Shown: piece after piece, positions 18,184 to 58,352 of the stretch
Position numbering within the stretch: the first letter of the stretch is position 1
How the letters are laid out: every line of letters begins with the position of its first letter
DNA from: Escherichia phage vB_EcoM_Maryam
Length of the DNA: 64,000 nucleotides
Direction: 5' to 3' (one strand)
Sequence record: PQ799574.1
The notes under the pieces: model-generated
Seen by the model: only the letters and a program-made list of their open reading frames with translations
Told to the model about the DNA's origin: nothing
The model's database searches: none
Translations under genes and position numbers: made by a program

Positions 18184-18517
18184 AATTTTGGTTTTATGTA
18201 TAGGATTAATTTCATTTTCTGCGTTAGCAGATACATCATATACTGAAATTAGAGAGTATGTAAACCGTACTGCAGCGGATTATTGCGGGAAAAATAAAGC
18301 ATGCCAAGCTGAATTTGCGCAGAAATTAATATATGCATATAAAGACGGAGAAAGAGATAAATCAAGCAGATACAAAAATGATACATTGTTAAAACGATAT
18401 GCTAAAAAGTGGAATACCTTAGAATGTTCAGTTGCGGAGGAGAAAGATAAAGCCGCTTGTCATTCAATGGTTGACCGTTTGGTAGATTCTTATAATCGAG
18501 GATTGAGTACTAGATGA
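18176..18517 (+). CDS. secreted Cys-containing protein
   Basis: 113 aa; signal peptide MTKILVLCIGLISFSALA. Confidence 0.5.
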   Translation: MTKILVLCIGLISFSALADTSYTEIREYVNRTAADYCGKNKACQAEFAQKLIYAYKDGERDKSSRYKNDTLLKRYAKKWNTLECSVAEEKDKAACHSMVDRLVDSYNRGLSTR

Positions 18518-18993
18518 TTGTAAAATATATCAAGGGCGATATTGTCGCCCTATTTCTTCAAGGTAATATTATTGCGCACGGGTGCAATTGTTTTCATACT
18601 ATGGGTTCAGGTGTAGCGGGTCAATTAGCCAGAGCCTATCCCAAAATTTTAGAAATAGATAAAACCACTACTGAGTACGGTTCTCGTGATAAATTAGGCG
18701 ATATGTCTATTGTTTTTAAACATAAACCTAATGGTTTTGGTATATGCTATAACCTGTATACGCAATACGAACCAGGTCCTAATCTTGATTATGGTGCTTT
18801 AGTAAACTGCATGATAGAATTAAATCTACAGGCAGAAACCCTTTTGTTTAAACCAGTAATTTACATTCCACGCATAGGTTGTGGTATTGCTGGCGGCGAT
18901 TGGGATAAGGTTTCTAAATTAATCGACATGTTTACTCCTGATATTGATTTAATAGTGGTGGATTATGAAAGTACATTACCCACATCCGTTTGA
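18514..18993 (+). CDS. macro domain protein (ADP-ribose binding/processing)
   Basis: 159 aa; GDIV...GNIIAHGCNC...GSGVAGQL resembles macro-domain signature. Confidence 0.55.
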   Translation: MIVKYIKGDIVALFLQGNIIAHGCNCFHTMGSGVAGQLARAYPKILEIDKTTTEYGSRDKLGDMSIVFKHKPNGFGICYNLYTQYEPGPNLDYGALVNCMIELNLQAETLLFKPVIYIPRIGCGIAGGDWDKVSKLIDMFTPDIDLIVVDYESTLPTSV

Positions 18994-19177
18994 TCCTAAA
19001 AACAAAGTGGAAATTATTCGTCAATGGGAACGCATTTGCCGTACTAAATGTCCAATTAATAGTCCACATGATGTAGATAAAGACTACATTGGAACATTCG
19101 TTGAATATACCTTTATTGATAAGAAAGGTCGTAAACAACATGTAGAAGAATATTGCTTAAAGGTTACATGGTTATGA
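18965..19177 (+). CDS. hypothetical protein
   Basis: 70 aa. Confidence 0.45.
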   Translation: MKVHYPHPFDPKNKVEIIRQWERICRTKCPINSPHDVDKDYIGTFVEYTFIDKKGRKQHVEEYCLKVTWL

Positions 19178-19380
19178 GCCAAACTAGTATTCTTAAAAAT
19201 GCCCACTGTGAAAAGTGTAAGTGGCCGGTTGTTTTTGCTTTATGCAACGATGAAATGGCTTGTGATTTCGATTATTGGTGCTATTGTTCTAATAAAGGAT
19301 GCATCAATCATAAAGGTGAAGGATTTTATTCAGGATTTTATCCTTATCCTGATTTCGTTAAAGAAGGTAAACCGAAATGA
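19174..19380 (+). CDS. Cys-rich putative zinc-binding protein
   Basis: 68 aa; CEKC...CNDEMAC...CYCSNKGC. Confidence 0.45.
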   Translation: MSQTSILKNAHCEKCKWPVVFALCNDEMACDFDYWCYCSNKGCINHKGEGFYSGFYPYPDFVKEGKPK

Positions 19381-19546
19381 ATAGTTTTGAGTTACAATAT
19401 GAAGTGTTACGTGAACTTGATAATTTAATTGAACTCGCTGTTAATAAAGGTTTTGCCATTGGAATTGGTCAAAAAGATACTGATCATTTAACTGTGGAAA
19501 TATTTAAGCAAAAGCGAATTATTTTAAAACTTCTGGAAATTAATAT

Positions 19547-19732
19547 ATGAGCCTAAGCAAAGAACAAAAAGACAAACTCTTTTCTCTTATCCACGAAGTT
19601 ATGGATAAAAATAGTGAATTGGAAAAAGTTTGTAATGAATGCGGTCCTTTTAGTGCAAACGAGTACGAAGAACTTTCTAAAGAATTCGATAATAAAGAAC
19701 AAGAACTCATTAATTATATAAATTCCTTATGA
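19547..19732 (+). CDS. small acidic protein (paralog family)
   Basis: 61 aa; N-terminal xxEQK pattern shared by neighbours. Confidence 0.45.
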   Translation: MSLSKEQKDKLFSLIHEVMDKNSELEKVCNECGPFSANEYEELSKEFDNKEQELINYINSL

Positions 19733-19917
19733 TTACTCGCGAACAAAAGAACGAAATATTATTTTTAGTTAGTGAAATTGTTAGTTTAGAAAAGGATTTG
19801 TCTTTTGAAATATCTTCTGAATATGGAGATGCCGAAACATATTACGAATTAGTAAAATCTATCGATAAAGCTGAAAATGATTTAGAAACATATTTAGAAA
19901 ATTTAACTAAGGACTAA
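19729..19917 (+). CDS. small acidic protein (paralog family)
   Basis: 62 aa; MITREQKNEILFLV. Confidence 0.45.
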   Translation: MITREQKNEILFLVSEIVSLEKDLSFEISSEYGDAETYYELVKSIDKAENDLETYLENLTKD

Positions 19918-19918
19918 G

Positions 19919-20500
19919 ATGGCGAGTTTAATTTTTACTTATGCAGCAATGAATGCTGGAAAATCTGCTTCTCTTTTGACTGCTGCACATAATTATAAAG
20001 AACGCGGAATGGGCGTATTAGTTCTTAAGCCTGCTATTGATACTCGCGATTCTGTCTGTGAAGTCGTTTCTCGCATTGGAATTAAACAGGAAGCGAATAT
20101 TATCACAGATGATATGGATATTTTCGAGTTCTATAAATGGGCTGAAGCACAAAAAGATATTCATTGCGTATTTGTAGATGAAGCCCAATTTTTAAAAACT
20201 GAACAGGTGCATCAATTAAGTCGAATTGTTGATACATATAATGTTCCTGTTATGGCTTATGGATTAAGGACTGATTTCGCTGGAAAATTATTTGAAGGTT
20301 CTAAAGAACTTTTGGCGATTGCAGATAAACTTATTGAACTAAAGGCAGTTTGTCACTGTGGTAAAAAAGCGATTATGACAGCTCGATTAATGGAAGATGG
20401 AACACCAGTTAAAGAAGGTAATCAAATCTGTATTGGTGATGAAATTTATGTTTCTTTGTGTAGAAAACATTGGAATGAATTAACTAAAAAGCTCGGTTAG
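19919..20500 (+). CDS. tk: thymidine kinase
   Basis: 193 aa; P-loop AAMNAGKSASLL; C-terminal Cys zinc site. Confidence 0.95.
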   Translation: MASLIFTYAAMNAGKSASLLTAAHNYKERGMGVLVLKPAIDTRDSVCEVVSRIGIKQEANIITDDMDIFEFYKWAEAQKDIHCVFVDEAQFLKTEQVHQLSRIVDTYNVPVMAYGLRTDFAGKLFEGSKELLAIADKLIELKAVCHCGKKAIMTARLMEDGTPVKEGNQICIGDEIYVSLCRKHWNELTKKLG

Positions 20501-20509
20501 TGCAAAAGT

Positions 20510-20517
20510 TATAAATA
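20510..20517 (+). promoter_or_regulatory. late promoter-like TATAAATA
   Basis: exact TATAAATA about 25 nt upstream of the 20543 ORF. Confidence 0.45.
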
Positions 20518-20542
20518 GGTTTATCTAACTAAAGGGGTATAT

Positions 20543-20755
20543 ATGCTACAATTAACTGAAAAGCAACTTCGCAATCTTACTGTTCTTCAATTAGATGAAA
20601 TTCGTAGGGAAGTTGGAAATATCATTTCAGCTTTGCGTCGAGAAGTATCACTCAACCAATCTCCGGCAGACTATACTAGATTGCGAAATTTTGAAAAATA
20701 CCTTGATAAAGTTAAGGCCGTGCATCGGCATAAAGTAAATACAGGACAAAAATGA
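20543..20755 (+). CDS. hypothetical protein
   Basis: 70 aa. Confidence 0.45.
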
Positions 20756-20767
20756 TAGGAGGCCTTT

Positions 20768-21061
20768 ATGGCCTTAAAAGCAACGGCACTTTTTGCCATG
20801 CTAGGATTGTCATTTGTTTTATCTCCATCGATTGAAGCGAATGTCGATCCTCATTTTGATAAATTTATGGAATCTGGTATTAGGCACGTTTATATGCTTT
20901 TTGAAAATAAAAGCGTAGAATCGTCTGAACAATTCTATAGTTTTATGAGAACGACCTATAAAAATGACCCGTGCTCTTCTGATTTTGAATGTATAGAGCG
21001 AGGCGCGGAGATGGCACAATCATACGCTAGAATTATGAACATTAAATTGGAGACTGAATGA
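20768..21061 (+). CDS. secreted protein
   Basis: 97 aa; signal peptide MALKATALFAMLGLSFVLSPSIEA. Confidence 0.5.
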   Translation: MALKATALFAMLGLSFVLSPSIEANVDPHFDKFMESGIRHVYMLFENKSVESSEQFYSFMRTTYKNDPCSSDFECIERGAEMAQSYARIMNIKLETE

Positions 21062-21444
21062 AATTCAGCGACTTTTCACAAAGTGGAAAACCTTCAAAGG
21101 CAGATGAATACTTAGGTTTATTAATGGCTGCACAAGCTTATTTTCATTCTGCACATTTTGAAACTAAAAGTTATGCTAGACACAAAGCATACGATTTTAT
21201 TTTCTCCGAGTTGCCAGATTTGATTGATAAATTTGGTGAGCAATATTTGGGGTATTCTGGTAGAAAATACACACCTTCAATTCCAGATGCCAGTAAACTT
21301 CCTACCGACACAATTAAAATGATTGATCGCATACTAGACCAATCTAACAGCATTTATAAAGAAATGCCTCCAGCCATCCAAAGCACGATAGATGATATTA
21401 CTGGAATGTTTTACCAGAGTAAGTATCTTCTTTCCCTCGAATAA
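21058..21444 (+). CDS. hypothetical protein
   Basis: 128 aa. Confidence 0.5.
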
Positions 21445-21448
21445 CATT

Positions 21449-21472
21449 AGTCTCCTTCGGGAGACTTTTTTC
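21449..21472 (+). terminator. rho-independent terminator (agtctcc-ttcg-ggagact + T run)
   Basis: 7-bp stem, UUCG loop, tttttt. Confidence 0.7.
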
Positions 21473-21481
21473 ATTTTACCG

Positions 21482-21513
21482 GTTTACTTTCCGTTTGAGC
21501 TGTGGTACTATAC
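21482..21513 (+). promoter_or_regulatory. T4-type early promoter (GTTTAC ... TGTGGTACTATAC)
   Basis: member of repeated promoter cassette family. Confidence 0.7.
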
Positions 21514-21539
21514 AACTATCGGATAAAGAGGAGAACATC

Positions 21540-21728
21540 ATGAAAATTGAAGCACTCAATCAAGAAGGAAATATCTACGTCATCATTAATGGTGATTTTT
21601 TCGTCAACATGGATGAAGTTACTAGTGAAGAACTTGTTGAAGTTTTGAAGAAACGTTATAATATGTGTGATGAAGCTGCAACGCATATGGCGTGTGCAAT
21701 ATTCTCTCTGTCATATGTGGTGGAATAA
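21540..21728 (+). CDS. hypothetical protein
   Basis: 62 aa from ATG 21540. Confidence 0.45.
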
Positions 21729-21931
21729 TGATTAGTATAGAGCAAGCAGATAAAATCAAGGAATTAGTGGCTTCAATTCGTAAAGCAGATGAAGAGCTGA
21801 TTGACTTTGCTTGGTATTCATCGGGTATTTCGAATAAAGGCATTAAAGACTTTGAAACTAAAGTTGATAATGCTTTAGAAGCGTTAGATATGTTTCTTGA
21901 TGAAATTATCGATCATAATACGAGAGTTTAA
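21728..21931 (+). CDS. small acidic protein (paralog family)
   Basis: 67 aa; [13 protein letters not shown]. Confidence 0.45.
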   Translation: MISIEQADKIKELVASIRKADEELIDFAWYSSGISNKGIKDFETKVDNALEALDMFLDEIIDHNTRV

Positions 21932-21933
21932 TT

Positions 21934-22128
21934 ATGCTAACACGCGAACAGTTTGAAAAAATCATTAAATTAGCACGTGATATTGAAATAGATTCATATC
22001 AATTAGCAGTTGAGCATTGTGAAGGATATTCATACGACGGTATAGAAGCAGCTAAAAAGGATTTGGATAAATCTAAAGCTAAGTTAGTTCAATATCTTGA
22101 AATGATTAGGTGGAATAATGAAAACTGA
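21934..22128 (+). CDS. small acidic protein (paralog family)
   Basis: 64 aa; MLTREQFEKIIKL. Confidence 0.45.
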   Translation: MLTREQFEKIIKLARDIEIDSYQLAVEHCEGYSYDGIEAAKKDLDKSKAKLVQYLEMIRWNNEN

Positions 22129-22291
22129 AAAGCAGATGTTTTTAATGAAGCTAATTGAAGAATATGCTAATGCAGTTTCTGACTATGAGTATTCTGCTCG
22201 GGAAAGAGGTACAGCTTTCGCAAAGGAAGAAATGAAAATCATGGTTGATGCTCACACAAAGCTTCAGAATTTTATTGAAAACAACATTTAA
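22118..22291 (+). CDS. small acidic protein (paralog family)
   Basis: 57 aa; MKTEKQMFLMKLIEE; below the ORF-track size cutoff. Confidence 0.4.
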   Translation: MKTEKQMFLMKLIEEYANAVSDYEYSARERGTAFAKEEMKIMVDAHTKLQNFIENNI

Positions 22292-22293
22292 CG

Positions 22294-22327
22294 GTTTACA
22301 AGTTGGCAAGGTTATGGTATAGTAATC
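22294..22327 (+). promoter_or_regulatory. T4-type early promoter (GTTTAC ... TATGGTATAGTAAT)
   Basis: hexamers and spacing. Confidence 0.6.
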
Positions 22328-22455
22328 TTGTCAACTGTCAAGGAGAAGAGAATGAAAGTTTTGTTTGTTATATATGTGATGATTCAATATAATTACCCAA
22401 TGTTTACTTATAATCTGGTGAACAACATTATTGATATGATTCAGAGGAGTATGTA

Positions 22456-22641
22456 ATGACAAGTGAGCAGGCTTTTAAATTAAGAGAATTAATTGAGACG
22501 TATAGTAAAGCTGTTCATACATCAACAATTATTGATGAATCAGCTTTCTCCGGACATGCCAGCAAGATTAAATACAAAACTCTTATGGAAGAAGCTAAAG
22601 TAAATCTTGATTCTTATATTGAAACTTTAATTGGTAAATAA
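22456..22641 (+). CDS. small acidic protein (paralog family)
   Basis: 61 aa; MTSEQAFKLRELIE. Confidence 0.45.
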   Translation: MTSEQAFKLRELIETYSKAVHTSTIIDESAFSGHASKIKYKTLMEEAKVNLDSYIETLIGK

Positions 22642-22642
22642 T

Positions 22643-23185
22643 ATGAAAGCTGTAATTGAAACAACTGATTTGTTCGGTGACCTGGTTATCGAAAAACGTG
22701 ATAATGTATACGTTCTGACGCAGGAAGACGATAGTATTACTATTCTTCCTATGGAATTGCCTGCGATTTTATCTTATGCTCCCTCAGGAGTTACCTGTGT
22801 AACTAATATTACAGACGACCTCCAAGTTCGTTTTTATCGTGGCACTCACGGCGGTAATATTGAAACTGAACTTGCGTGTCTTTCTATCAACAATTGGGCA
22901 ACATTCGTTGCCAAGGTGAAAGAATTCTTGGAATCTGAAACAGTCGAAACACCCGAAAAGGCTAAACTTCAATGGGCTAAAGATCGCGGTGCTAGCATTA
23001 TTAATCCAGTAGCTGCAAATTATACTACGACTTTGGATGTCAAGACTTCTTATGAAGATGGCGATGTCGTACTTGTTCGCCAAATTGATGATTCTCGAGC
23101 ACATATTGTCACATTTACCAAAGACGAAGCTATTGCGCTAAAGACTTATCTTGATTCTGTTATTCCAACTATGATTTCAAAGTGA
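22643..23185 (+). CDS. hypothetical protein (paralog of next ORF)
   Basis: 180 aa from ATG 22643; C-terminal EAIALKTYLDSVIPTM. Confidence 0.5.
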   Translation: MKAVIETTDLFGDLVIEKRDNVYVLTQEDDSITILPMELPAILSYAPSGVTCVTNITDDLQVRFYRGTHGGNIETELACLSINNWATFVAKVKEFLESETVETPEKAKLQWAKDRGASIINPVAANYTTTLDVKTSYEDGDVVLVRQIDDSRAHIVTFTKDEAIALKTYLDSVIPTMISK

Positions 23186-23191
23186 GGAAAT

Positions 23192-23713
23192 ATGTTTATT
23201 TCAAGTGGAAGCGGTTTAATTCGTGTTGAATTTAAAAATGACATCTTCCTTATTCAAGGAGATGATATTATTAAAATGAGTTATGACGAAATCAAGAAAA
23301 TTTGTCATACTCTTGAAAGCCGTGGAAAAGTAAATGCTGTTATTGACATTGGTGATTTATGGGTAACGCTTTATGAAGTATCCGAAGGATTTAACATTGA
23401 AGATGAAAATAACATCTTAGCTATTGATAAAAGAACTGATTTGCTTGATGTATTAAAAGCCTATGAACAATCAAACGGTGGAAGAAAAGCTGTATTGATT
23501 TATCAAAAACCGCATTCATGTGGAACTGCTTCAATCATTTCAAATATTGAAGGCGAAGTTGATACTTATATGTGTGTTTTAAAAGCTGGTGGTGACCGTC
23601 ATCCAGATTTTGTTTCTATTCGCCAAAACGGTGAAGAAATTTCACTATCAAAATCAGAAGCTGAAGCTATGATTAAGTATTTAACAACTGTTACGCCTTC
23701 AATGAAAGGATAG
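23192..23713 (+). CDS. hypothetical protein (paralog of previous ORF)
   Basis: 173 aa; C-terminal EAEAMIKYLTTVTPSM. Confidence 0.5.
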   Translation: MFISSGSGLIRVEFKNDIFLIQGDDIIKMSYDEIKKICHTLESRGKVNAVIDIGDLWVTLYEVSEGFNIEDENNILAIDKRTDLLDVLKAYEQSNGGRKAVLIYQKPHSCGTASIISNIEGEVDTYMCVLKAGGDRHPDFVSIRQNGEEISLSKSEAEAMIKYLTTVTPSMKG

Positions 23714-37640: not shown

Positions 37641-37934
37641 ATGGGTAAAACGTATCGTCGTAAAGACTTAAAAGTGCGTGATTATGACTATTTCGGAAAG
37701 CGTAAAGCTCCTGATGGGGTAAGTCATAAAGATATGGTTGAAAACATTTTTCGCTCAGATAAATGGCGTAGAATGAAAGGCATTGATTCAGAAGTTAAAG
37801 ATGAGCTAAATCGCCAATTACGCGGTGAAGTAAGAAAGTTGAAAAAATCAGTTTACATTGATGATGATTTTGATTATAATACTTCTCAACGAGTTGCTAA
37901 ACGTAAATCAAACGAGTGTTATCGTTACAGCTGA
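37641..37934 (+). CDS. hypothetical basic protein
   Basis: 97 aa from ATG 37641. Confidence 0.45.
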   Translation: MGKTYRRKDLKVRDYDYFGKRKAPDGVSHKDMVENIFRSDKWRRMKGIDSEVKDELNRQLRGEVRKLKKSVYIDDDFDYNTSQRVAKRKSNECYRYS

Positions 37935-38073
37935 GGAAAATATGAATATCAAACGAATGCTTTTTAAGCAGGGGTTATACACTTTAAATGTTACTCCAAA
38001 AGGTGATACAACTAAGTGGTCAGTAAATGACTGGATTAAATTTATTGATGAAAATGGTAATTGGGAAATTTAA

Positions 38074-38274
38074 ATGAATCCTGAATCTAAATTATCGCAG
38101 CGAATTGCCGAAGCTCGTCGTCAGTTCTTTGAAAATATGATAGCACAAGGTATTGATGACGAAGTTTTTCTAAACTGGTTTTGGAATCACAAATATTCAA
38201 GTTGCTCAGGAGCAATATTAATATCAGCCGCAATGATGTATGAAGGCTGGAAGGGTGCCAAACGGTTTAGCTAA
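38074..38274 (+). CDS. hypothetical protein
   Basis: 66 aa. Confidence 0.45.
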   Translation: MNPESKLSQRIAEARRQFFENMIAQGIDDEVFLNWFWNHKYSSCSGAILISAAMMYEGWKGAKRFS

Positions 38275-45932: not shown

Positions 45933-45992
45933 ATGAAACTGTCTAAAGATACTACTGCTCTGCTTAAAAATTTCGCTACTATTAACTCGTAA
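45933..45992 (+). pseudogene. 45: truncated sliding clamp gene 45: first 19 codons then stop
   Basis: MKLSKDTTALLKNFATINS matches recalled gp45 N-terminus; expected GIMLKSG continuation is replaced by TAA; rest of the 228-codon gene absent. Confidence 0.8.
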
Positions 45993-57860: not shown

Positions 57861-58352
57861 TTATGCATAGCGAGCTTTGCTGTAGTGTTTAATCCAACTT
57901 TCAGGAATGACTTTGTATGTTCCTAAAAATACCGCGTTGTATAACTTAACGCCATCTTCTACCCATTGATCAGTAATGTATGCACACATAGCGCGAGTAC
58001 GGTTAACAACACCTTCCTCACCTTCAGTAAATTCAAACTCATAAGGAGCAACGAACTTGATAGCTTGACCGAGTTTCCACTTAAAGTCTACACCTACATG
58101 CGAAGTATCAATCGTTTCAATTCCTTTAGCGGGAACAGCTTTCAAAAACGCAGGCTCAAGAAATTTCCATCGAACATAACCAAACTGAGGTTTAGACATT
58201 CCATCTTTAGGAATGATACGCACTTTTACTTCAGAATCTTCATCTTTAACACCATGTTTAAGCTGAATGCTTACGACTTCAACCAATTTTCCTGCTGCTT
58301 TAGAACGGGATTTATCAGATACACGAGCAATTTCACCGATATTAATATTCAT
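57861..58352 (-). CDS. hypothetical protein (paralog of next ORF)
   Basis: 163 aa; C-terminal ITDQWVEDGVKLYNAVFLGTY motif. Confidence 0.5.
   Translation of the reverse strand: MNINIGEIARVSDKSRSKAAGKLVEVVSIQLKHGVKDEDSEVKVRIIPKDGMSKPQFGYVRWKFLEPAFLKAVPAKGIETIDTSHVGVDFKWKLGQAIKFVAPYEFEFTEGEEGVVNRTRAMCAYITDQWVEDGVKLYNAVFLGTYKVIPESWIKHYSKARYA

What the first reader, a model, noticed from the sequence alone, without database searches (positions are those of the whole stretch)
19547..22641. Six or more paralogous about 60-aa acidic ORFs flanking tk
ORFs at 19547, 19729, 21728, 21934, 22118 and 22456 share length and an N-terminal M-x-x-[RS]-EQ-x-x-K-[IL] pattern with predicted helical hairpins. Such expanded small-protein families in hyperplastic regions are typical of host-takeover or anti-defence modules.
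Basis: seen in the sequence. Interest (0 to 1): 0.45.

Follow-up and report, generated by a model that had tools for sequence, protein, structure and literature searches.

The report
Six paralogous T4 hairpin mini-proteins
The six small genes are real, old copies of one already catalogued T4-phage family (Tk.1/Tk.2/MobD.3/MobD.4, Pfam DUF7438) of about 60-residue two-helix hairpin proteins made early in infection; their job is unknown, and binding host or defence proteins is the most likely one.

Summary
The window is a T4-like (Tequatrovirus) genome. All six ORFs match Pfam DUF7438 over its full length (E 1e-15 to 1e-19, well above the curated cut-off). Each also ranks above every unrelated window ORF and every shuffle when left out of an HMM built from the other five. 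There are exactly six copies in the window.

They are the orthologues of T4 tk.2, tk.1, mobD.4, mobD.3 and an intact mobD.2a, which is split by a frameshift in reference T4. The sixth copy is missing from T4 and present in only 192 phage records. AlphaFold2 predicts one antiparallel two-helix hairpin (pLDDT about 94). That fold is generic and has no informative structural relative.

In T4 the orthologues are early genes, detected as proteins, and dispensable in the laboratory. They evolve much faster than their neighbours, vary in copy number (1-6) across Tevenvirinae, and lie next to proven anti-defence genes such as tk.4 (AdfM).

The anti-defence or host-takeover reading is therefore plausible by context, but nothing here tests it. 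My best guess (about 0.4) is small oligomerising protein binders with a conserved scaffold and variable surfaces. The family is already known; its function is not. Interest is modest.

The parts
19547..19732 (+). DUF7438 copy 1, orthologue of T4 tk.2 (61 aa, net charge -7)
   Evidence: Pfam PF24219 E 3.9e-19. It is 96.7% identical to T4 Tk.2. Its ATGA start/stop overlaps the upstream ORF.
19729..19917 (+). DUF7438 copy 2, orthologue of T4 tk.1 (62 aa, net charge -10); it ends 1 nt before the tk start
   Evidence: Pfam E 3.2e-15. It is 96.8% identical to T4 Tk.1. The AF2 model is a hairpin, pLDDT 94.3.
21728..21931 (+). DUF7438 copy 3, orthologue of T4 mobD.4 (67 aa; a divergent allele with a longer loop than T4's 60-aa form)
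   Evidence: Pfam E 6.5e-16. It is only 74.6% identical to T4 MobD.4. Variation among its orthologues clusters at residues 14-16 and 23-44.
21934..22128 (+). DUF7438 copy 4, orthologue of T4 mobD.3 (64 aa)
   Evidence: Pfam E 1.5e-17. It is 96.9% identical to T4 MobD.3. The AF2 model is a hairpin, H4-29/H34-63, pLDDT 93.7.
22118..22291 (+). DUF7438 copy 5 (57 aa), the intact form of T4 mobD.2a
   Evidence: Pfam E 5.8e-16 and phrog_2758. In reference T4 the two halves lie in different frames, at 58052-58177 and 57996-58094. The copy is full length in 489 of 491 matching phage records.
22456..22641 (+). DUF7438 copy 6 (61 aa); absent from T4 and variably present among relatives; labelled 'helicase loader' in RefSeq/PHROGs without support
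   Evidence: Pfam E 2e-15 and phrog_4859. It has no T4 hit and occurs in 192 phage records. It shows no similarity to T4 gp59.
21483..21511 (+). T4-type early promoter-like site (cgGTTTACt, 17 nt, TACTAT) upstream of mobD.5, which is followed by copies 3-5
   Evidence: Read from the sequence. It is too weak for the sigma-70 consensus scan. A mobD.5 promoter 5' end was mapped in T4 by primer extension (PMC1702504). That this site is the same promoter is inferred.
22295..22323 (+). Early promoter-like site (cgGTTTACA, 17 nt, tgg-TATAGT) upstream of the mobD.2-like 34-aa ORF and copy 6
   Evidence: Consensus scan: 10 of 12 matches with an extended -10 TG; sequence read. Function is inferred.
21449..21466 (+). 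Intrinsic-terminator-like hairpin (UUCG tetraloop followed by a T run) after rI.-1; it separates the tk-side unit from the mobD-side unit
   Evidence: Terminator scan and sequence.

Best explanation
SHOWN (about 0.97). The six ORFs are anciently diverged paralogues of one phage-restricted family, Pfam DUF7438, which contains T4 Tk.2, Tk.1, MobD.4, MobD.3 and MobD.2a. Each is a single antiparallel two-helix hairpin of about 60 residues. They lie in two translationally coupled early gene runs, one on each side of tk-rI.

INFERRED (about 0.4). They are non-enzymatic, stoichiometric protein binders made early in infection. The conserved 'open end' of the hairpin comprises the N-cap T-x-E-Q and the residues at positions 10, 13, 14, 17, 51, 54, 55 and 58 (numbering of the 21934 copy). 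I infer that this end is a common scaffold and probably an oligomerisation face, pairing two hairpins into a four-helix bundle as in other 60-residue hairpins. The fast-changing mid-helix and loop surfaces would give each paralogue its own target. On this reading the array is a diversified, partly redundant set of accessory factors that neutralise or redirect host proteins. Counter-defence is the likeliest sub-case, given the neighbouring genes.
For: Family identity rests on three results: Pfam hits for all six copies, the leave-one-out tests, and orthology and synteny with T4.

The fold is a confident AF2 hairpin for two paralogues. The family is too small, and has no conserved polar cluster, to be an enzyme. 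The conserved columns are hydrophobic a/d/e positions plus a helix N-cap, and the other columns are near-random.

The hydrophobic stripe is wider at the open end (positions 13/14 and 54/55, 58/59). This is typical of hairpins that pair into bundles, an inference by analogy with Rop, CsoR and designed homo-oligomers among the structural matches.

The T4 orthologues are made early and are detected as proteins (PMC9697503 supplement). A mobD.5 promoter has been mapped in T4 (PMC1702504). The T4 genes are individually dispensable (PMC11879866 supplement) and partly deletable (PMC9825161).

The family evolves fast. Between the window and a Mosigvirus, tk is 82%, regB 75.5% and nrdC.11 77% identical, against 47.5% for tk.2 and 51% for mobD.2a, with tk.1 below the BLAST threshold. 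Copy number is 6 here, 4 intact plus 1 broken in T4, 4 in Mosigvirus, and 1 plus weak extra hits in Kanagawavirus and Moonvirus. Copy 6 is present in only 192 records.

The family is phage-restricted: only 37 clusters at 50% identity among 1.84 billion representatives. A single copy sits in the early left end of the N4-like phage IME11.

The neighbours tk.4 (AdfM, anti-DarTG2) and nrdC.1 (anti-Septu) are experimentally shown anti-defence genes (preprint 10.1101/2025.11.20.689424).
Against: - There is no direct functional evidence of any kind.
- No relative has a known function by sequence or by a specific fold match.
- The absence of a knock-down phenotype fits 'accessory' but fits 'unimportant' equally well.
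- A transposon screen of T4 on defence-carrying hosts reported other genes, and its main text does not mention these. Its supplements were not examined, and redundancy among paralogues could hide effects.
- Oligomerisation could not be modelled with the available tools.
- tk.1 lies directly upstream of tk in four genera, which could instead point to a phage-internal role.
- Guilt by association is weak in T4, where most early regions mix many functions.
Confidence: 0.4

Rival explanations
1. The proteins are phage-internal accessory subunits. They would act as small adaptors or chaperones for phage proteins encoded nearby, for example thymidine kinase or the dNTP-synthesising enzyme complex, rather than acting on host proteins.
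For: tk.1 abuts tk, with its stop codon 1 nt before the tk start in the window. A DUF7438 gene lies just upstream of tk in Tequatrovirus, Mosigvirus, Kanagawavirus and Moonvirus. Tk.1, Tk.2 and Tk share the same expression class in T4, early RNA with middle protein.
Against: Four of the six copies are not next to tk. In phage Moon a homing endonuclease gene separates the copy from tk. The N4-like phage IME11 carries a copy among small early genes with no tk annotated in the 8-kb stretch examined. A partner-specific adaptor for the conserved Tk (82% identical between genera) would not be expected to diverge to 47% or to undetectable similarity. Copy number varies while tk stays single.
Confidence: 0.12
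2. The proteins act on nucleic acids. They would be either Rop-like four-helix-bundle binders of RNA or DNA structures, or acidic DNA mimics that titrate DNA-binding host proteins such as restriction enzymes or nucleoid proteins.
Confidence: 0.1
3. The proteins are host-takeover regulators of transcription. They would be small helical binders of RNA polymerase or sigma factors, in the manner of other small T4 early proteins, rather than counter-defence factors.
For: They are expressed early. They are small all-helical proteins. From general knowledge, T4 devotes several small early proteins to RNA polymerase.
Against: No similarity to any such protein was found in Pfam or PDB sequence searches. 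A conserved target such as RNA polymerase would not obviously drive six-fold diversification, variable copy number and fast divergence. Knock-downs show no fitness effect.
Confidence: 0.12
4. The similarity is a chance or compositional artefact of AT-rich short ORFs, or the ORFs are not genes.
For: Pairwise BLAST between copies is weak or absent for many pairs.
Against: Pfam E-values are 1e-15 to 1e-19 for all six copies. The leave-one-out tests beat all 1204 window ORFs and about 1000 shuffles each. The orthologues are conserved across genera. The T4 orthologues were detected as proteins by mass spectrometry.
Confidence: 0.01

Closest known systems
Pfam DUF7438 (PF24219) / PHROGs 653, 2758 and 4859: T4 Tk.1, Tk.2, MobD.3, MobD.4 and MobD.2a
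   Same: All six window proteins are full-length members above the curated threshold. They sit at the same genomic positions as the T4 genes and are 75-97% identical to them.
   Different: Nothing essential differs. This genome has one more intact copy than reference T4 (mobD.2a is not frameshifted), plus a sixth copy that T4 lacks. PHROGs splits the one family into three groups. The family has no assigned function.
Rop/Rom of ColE1 plasmids (63-aa hairpin that dimerises to a four-helix bundle and binds RNA kissing complexes)
   Different: No detectable sequence relationship. The match is one of 1868 generic hairpin matches. The phage proteins are acidic to neutral and lack a conserved basic face, so RNA binding is unlikely. 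Dimerisation was not tested.
D-63 of Sulfolobus spindle-shaped virus 1 (PDB 1skv), a viral helical-hairpin protein of unknown function
   Same: A roughly 60-residue viral helix-turn-helix hairpin with no catalytic features. It appears among the Foldseek matches. That it forms a dimeric four-helix bundle and was proposed to be an adaptor is my recollection, not a tool result.
   Different: Weak match (E about 1, TM about 0.5), an archaeal virus, and no sequence similarity. It is an analogy only.
Neighbouring T4 anti-defence genes (tk.4 = AdfM macrodomain; nrdC.1)
   Same: Same early, non-essential, fast-evolving genome neighbourhood.
   Different: They are unrelated in sequence and fold. Those genes have demonstrated phenotypes against DarTG2 and Septu, whereas DUF7438 genes have none reported.

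Membership tests
Pfam DUF7438 (PF24219) | Full-length match to the family HMM above the curated gathering score (25 bits) | tested here: met
   56.7-69.2 bits, covering HMM positions 1-56/57 of 57, for all six ORFs.
Pfam DUF7438 (PF24219) | Single-domain protein of about 60 aa with the N-terminal M-[LI]-T-x-E-Q..K-[IL]..L-[IV] motif and the C-terminal L..[YF]-[LIV]-E..[LI] motif | tested here: met
   Lengths are 57-67 aa. Both motifs are present in the alignments of the six copies and of 33 family members.
Pfam DUF7438 (PF24219) | Orthology and synteny with the T4 genes tk.2, tk.1, mobD.4, mobD.3 and mobD.2a | tested here: met
   Gene order matches T4. Identity is 75-97% for five copies. The sixth copy has orthologues in 192 related phage records but not in T4.
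Rop/Rom | Sequence homology to Rop | tested here: not met
   A profile of the six copies searched against all PDB sequences at E up to 10 returns no Rop chain.
Rop/Rom | Antiparallel two-helix hairpin | tested here: met
Rop/Rom | Homodimeric four-helix bundle that binds RNA | not testable with these tools
   No multimer prediction or binding assay was available. Net charges of -1 to -10 argue against RNA binding.
T4 gp59-type helicase loader (the label carried by phrog_4859 and RefSeq for copy 6) | Sequence similarity to gp59 or to a helicase-loader domain | tested here: not met
   BLASTP against T4 gp59 gives E 0.9 over 8 residues. The only significant Pfam hit is DUF7438.
Molybdopterin-guanine dinucleotide biosynthesis protein 'MobD' (the RefSeq label on mobD.4 and mobD.3 orthologues) | A molybdopterin-biosynthesis domain | tested here: not met
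   No such Pfam domain is found; only DUF7438. The label appears to derive from the T4 gene name mobD.x, where 'mob' refers to the neighbouring homing endonuclease.
Phage anti-defence proteins (functional class) | Demonstrated inhibition of a host defence system, or homology to a protein with such activity | not testable with these tools
   No homologue of known function was found. The searched literature contains no phenotype for these genes. Only the genomic context supports this class.

The most novel reading that the evidence does not exclude
The DUF7438 hairpins would be a combinatorial counter-defence toolkit. All paralogues share one conserved pairing face, so they could form homo- and hetero-oligomeric four-helix bundles. 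Their variable surfaces would each neutralise a different host immune protein or allelic variant. Redundancy among copies would hide them from single-gene knock-down and transposon screens. Natural hybrid genes, such as the tk.2/tk.1 chimera in phage UFV-AREG1, would show new specificities arising by recombination at the loop.
Probability: 0.15. Interest if true: 0.6.

Novelty: already known. Interest (0 to 1): 0.3.

Why it matters
T4 is the best-studied large lytic phage, yet close to half of its genes have no known function. Families that a phage keeps in several diverged copies are good candidates for arms-race functions.

If these hairpins prove to be a diversified set of host- or defence-protein binders, two things would follow. 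It would explain five to six 'hypothetical' genes in several hundred T4-like genomes. It would also show how single-gene screens miss redundant paralogue sets.

As it stands, the result is mainly a clean annotation. The six genes form one known family of unknown function. Two labels that are spreading through the databases ('helicase loader' and 'molybdopterin-guanine dinucleotide biosynthesis protein MobD') are unsupported.

Tried and rejected
- Seventh copy: HMMs built from 6, 26 and 33 family members found none in the window. In T4 the only extra hit is PseT.1 (E about 0.005), which has no Pfam match, so I left it as a lead.
- Recent tandem duplication: rejected. Protein identity is 14-33%. 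DNA similarity is limited to 19-26 nt around the start codons, for example GGTGGAATAATG before copies 3 and 5.
- Metal binding by the CxxC in the loop of the tk.2 copy: rejected, because the cysteines are not conserved among orthologues or paralogues.
- Sequence search of the PDB: nothing below E 0.1.
- The search for related loci with the family alignment failed, because no stretch is conserved enough.
- tblastn of two distant metagenomic members (P0138, P0127) against phage genomes found no match.
- Rfam scan of 18500-23500: no RNA family.
- Literature: no paper contains 'DUF7438'. Only three papers mention any mobD.x gene, none of them functionally.
- 'Helicase loader' identity of copy 6: rejected.
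Full report
**What the window is.** The stretch 19300-22700 is 100% identical to Escherichia phage vB_EcoT_BCU-2 (PV290051.1). It is 97-98% identical to several hundred Tequatrovirus genomes. The + strand of the window is the reverse of the T4 GenBank orientation. The gene order here is regB, vs.1, vs, tk.4, tk.3, two extra small ORFs, tk.2, tk.1, tk, rI.1, rI, rI.-1, mobD.5, mobD.4, mobD.3, mobD.2a, mobD.2, one extra ORF, mobD.1-like genes and nrdC.11.

**Checking the observation.** All six ORFs start with ATG at the stated coordinates and are annotated CDS in the identical record. Each matches Pfam PF24219 (DUF7438) end to end at 56.7-69.2 bits, against a cut-off of 25, with E 3.9e-19 to 3.2e-15. 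In PHROGs, four copies fall in phrog_653, one in phrog_2758 and one in phrog_4859, with cross-hits between these groups.
- I also tested the relationship using the window alone. I built an HMM from five copies and scored all 1204 stop-to-stop ORFs of the window. The left-out copy always ranked sixth, at 11.8-24.4 bits. That was above the best unrelated ORF (6.0-9.4 bits) and above the best of about 1000 scored shuffles of itself (9.5-13.7 bits).
- Pairwise identities are only 14-33% and many BLAST pairs are insignificant. The relationship is therefore old, and only profile searches show it.
- HMMs of increasing breadth find no seventh copy in the window.
- 'Acidic' holds strongly for only three copies. 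Net charges are -7, -10, -7, -3, -2 and -1.

**Identity of each copy.** The mapping to T4 is:
- 19547 = tk.2 (96.7% identical)
- 19729 = tk.1 (96.8%)
- 21728 = mobD.4 (74.6%; a divergent allele with a longer loop)
- 21934 = mobD.3 (96.9%)
- 22118 = the intact form of mobD.2a
- 22456 = no T4 counterpart

In reference T4 the mobD.2a copy is split. HMM positions 1-34 lie in the annotated 38-aa ORF and positions 32-58 lie in another frame just downstream. The 57-aa form is full length in 489 of 491 matching phage records, including another T4 record, KJ477685.1. Copy 6 occurs in only 192 records, against about 550 that carry the region.

**Structure.** AlphaFold2 with a 26-sequence family alignment gives a confident antiparallel two-helix hairpin for two paralogues. 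The mobD.3 copy has H4-29/H34-63 at pLDDT 93.7, and the tk.1 copy has H4-29/H35-61 at pLDDT 94.3.
- In a 33-member alignment, the conserved columns are M1, L/I2, T3, E5, Q6, K9, I/L10, L13, I/V14, I/Y17, A20 and L24 on helix 1. On helix 2 they are positions 40, 44, 47, L51, Y/F54, L/I55, E56 and L/I58.
- These columns form a helix N-cap plus an a/d core. The core widens to a/d/e at the open end of the hairpin, where the two termini meet.
- The remaining surface, and especially the loop-proximal half, is close to random between paralogues. It is also where orthologues differ most in the mobD.4 and tk.2 lineages.

**Relatives.**
- No PDB sequence is related.
- Foldseek against the PDB gives nothing better than E 0.4.
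- In BFVD the only matches with sequence identity near or above 30% are uncharacterised proteins of other T4-like phages such as Merlin, VR25, EcS1, IME523 and PM2.
- An exhaustive profile search of 1.84 billion representative proteins finds only 37 clusters at E up to 1e-3. Nearly all are 57-67 aa; two are 117-119 aa with an extra C-terminal part.

**Distribution.** A Mosigvirus (ATK47) has four copies: the tk.2 and tk.1 positions, a mobD.2a-like copy and a copy-6-like gene. Kanagawavirus PEi20 and Moonvirus Moon each have one clear copy at the tk.1 position plus one or two weak ones downstream of rI.-1. One bona fide member (Pfam E 1.8e-13) sits among the small early genes at the left end of the N4-like phage IME11. 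A weaker relative is in an Aeromonas Casjensviridae phage. The family is thus phage-restricted. It is anchored at two syntenic sites in Tevenvirinae, and it is most expanded in genomes like this one.

**Expression and dispensability (T4 orthologues, from the literature).**
- In a time-resolved transcriptome and proteome study, mobD.3 and mobD.4 are classed early-RNA/early-protein. tk.1 and tk.2 are classed early-RNA/middle-protein, so all four proteins are made (PMC9697503 supplement).
- A mobD.5 promoter 5' end was mapped by primer extension (PMC1702504).
- In the window, a T4-type early promoter-like site (cgGTTTAC, 17 nt, TACTAT) precedes mobD.5. A second (cgGTTTACA, 17 nt, tgg-TATAGT) precedes mobD.2 and copy 6. 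A UUCG-tetraloop terminator follows rI.-1.
- Start and stop codons overlap or abut throughout (ATGA, TAATG), which suggests translational coupling.
- dCas13d knock-down of tk.1, tk.2, mobD.2a, mobD.3 and mobD.4 gave no fitness effect (PMC11879866 supplement).
- The segment nrdC.11-mobD.3 was lost in viable genome-reduced T4 (PMC9825161). A protein from a T4 record (locus tag T4583L_100) joins the N-terminal part of MobD.3 to a tail ending in the same residues as the nrdC.11-like protein of this window. That would fit such a deletion; I did not check it further.

**Evolutionary behaviour.** Between this genome and a Mosigvirus, tk, regB, vs.1 and nrdC.11 are 75-82% identical. By contrast tk.2 is 47.5%, the mobD.2a-type copy 51%, and tk.1 is not found by tblastn. 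Within Tequatrovirus the mobD.4 lineage is the most polymorphic. It has 45 clusters at 90% identity, falls to 63% identity, and carries loop indels. DNA similarity between paralogues survives only around the start codons, so the duplications are ancient.

**How it most likely works.** The shown facts are these: a tiny non-enzymatic hairpin with a conserved core and variable surface; early expression; dispensability in the laboratory; fast divergence; variable copy number; restriction to phages. From them I infer stoichiometric protein binders that probably pair through the conserved open end into four-helix bundles, each using its own variable surface on a different target.
- The neighbourhood favours counter-defence. 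Three genes upstream lies tk.4, shown by transposon sequencing and a clean knockout to be an anti-DarTG2 macrodomain (AdfM). nrdC.1, further downstream, inhibits Septu (preprint 10.1101/2025.11.20.689424).
- This is context, not proof. I put about 0.4 on the binder/accessory model as a whole and less on counter-defence specifically.
- The rivals are a phage-internal adaptor for Tk or the dNTP complex (0.12), nucleic-acid-directed action or DNA mimicry (0.10), and RNA-polymerase-directed takeover (0.12). Chance is excluded.

**Comparison with the known, and novelty.** The six proteins are members of an existing Pfam family and near-identical orthologues of long-annotated T4 ORFs, so the thing itself is already known. 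The function is not known, and I found no paper that discusses the family. Two database labels are unsupported. 'Helicase loader' for the copy-6 lineage shows no similarity to gp59. 'Molybdopterin-guanine dinucleotide biosynthesis protein MobD' for mobD.3 and mobD.4 orthologues appears to come from the gene name only.

**Verdict.** The family is catalogued, and interest is modest (0.3). The finding is mainly a well-defined target for a multi-copy deletion experiment.

Noticed in passing
L001 (T4 NC_000866) 57996-58177 on the minus strand; window 22118-22291: T4's annotated 38-aa mobD.2a is the N-terminal half of a frameshift-split DUF7438 gene, and the C-terminal half lies in another frame just downstream. 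The 57-aa form is intact in 489 of 491 matching phage records, including another T4 record (KJ477685.1). The reference T4 state is therefore a strain mutation or a sequencing error.
   Followed up: partly
window 22456-22641 and 21728-22128; RefSeq records: Unsupported product names are spreading through the databases. The copy-6 lineage carries 'helicase loader' (phrog_4859, RefSeq). mobD.3 and mobD.4 orthologues carry 'molybdopterin-guanine dinucleotide biosynthesis protein MobD'. Neither label has any sequence support.
   Followed up: yes
P0039 (Escherichia phage UFV-AREG1), aligned: This is a natural hybrid protein. Its N-terminal helix matches Tk.2 and its loop and C-terminal helix match Tk.1, apparently by recombination between the adjacent paralogues with loss of one copy.
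   Followed up: no
window 18514-18993 (tk.4/AdfM macrodomain) and 22643-23185 (mobD.1): These two genes are only 57% and 47.5% identical to their T4 counterparts, while the flanking genes are 95-100% identical. That indicates allelic replacement (mosaicism). tk.4 was recently shown to be an anti-DarTG2 factor.
   Followed up: partly
window 19174-19380 and 19377-19550: Two small ORFs between tk.3 and tk.2 are absent from T4. The first is Cys/His-rich (CxxC...CxC...C..H), is 89.6% identical to a Mosigvirus ORF, and may bind zinc. The second is a phrog_3452 member of unknown function.
   Followed up: no
window 22643-23185 and 23192-23713: A second tandem paralogue pair lies immediately downstream. 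Two MobD.1-like proteins of 180 and 173 aa are 29% identical over 173 residues (E 1e-8). The second has no T4 counterpart.
   Followed up: partly
L005 (T4) 37909-38136 on the minus strand (pseT.1), outside the window: PseT.1 (75 aa) gives a weak end-to-end hit to the family HMMs (E about 0.005 among T4 ORFs) but no Pfam match. It may be a very distant relative or a chance match.
   Followed up: partly
window about 45990; record PV290051.1: Gene order appears to break near 45990. Beyond it, the sequence matches the gene 52/ndd/motA region, which lies about 100 kb from tk in T4. The identical GenBank record is labelled a 'complete genome' but is only 46.9 kb long. The window may span an assembly junction or concatenated contigs.
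   Followed up: no
L007 (phage IME11) 3995-4177; P0133 and P0139 (metagenomic): Family members occur outside the T4-like phages. A single copy sits in the early left end of an N4-like Gamaleyavirus. Two metagenomic proteins of 117-119 aa carry the hairpin plus an extra C-terminal part.
   Followed up: partly
window 21719-21744 and 22109-22134: The junction sequence GGTGGAATAATG, in which the upstream stop TAA overlaps the ATG, is conserved in front of copies 3 and 5. It looks like a shared translational-coupling signal retained since the duplication.
   Followed up: no
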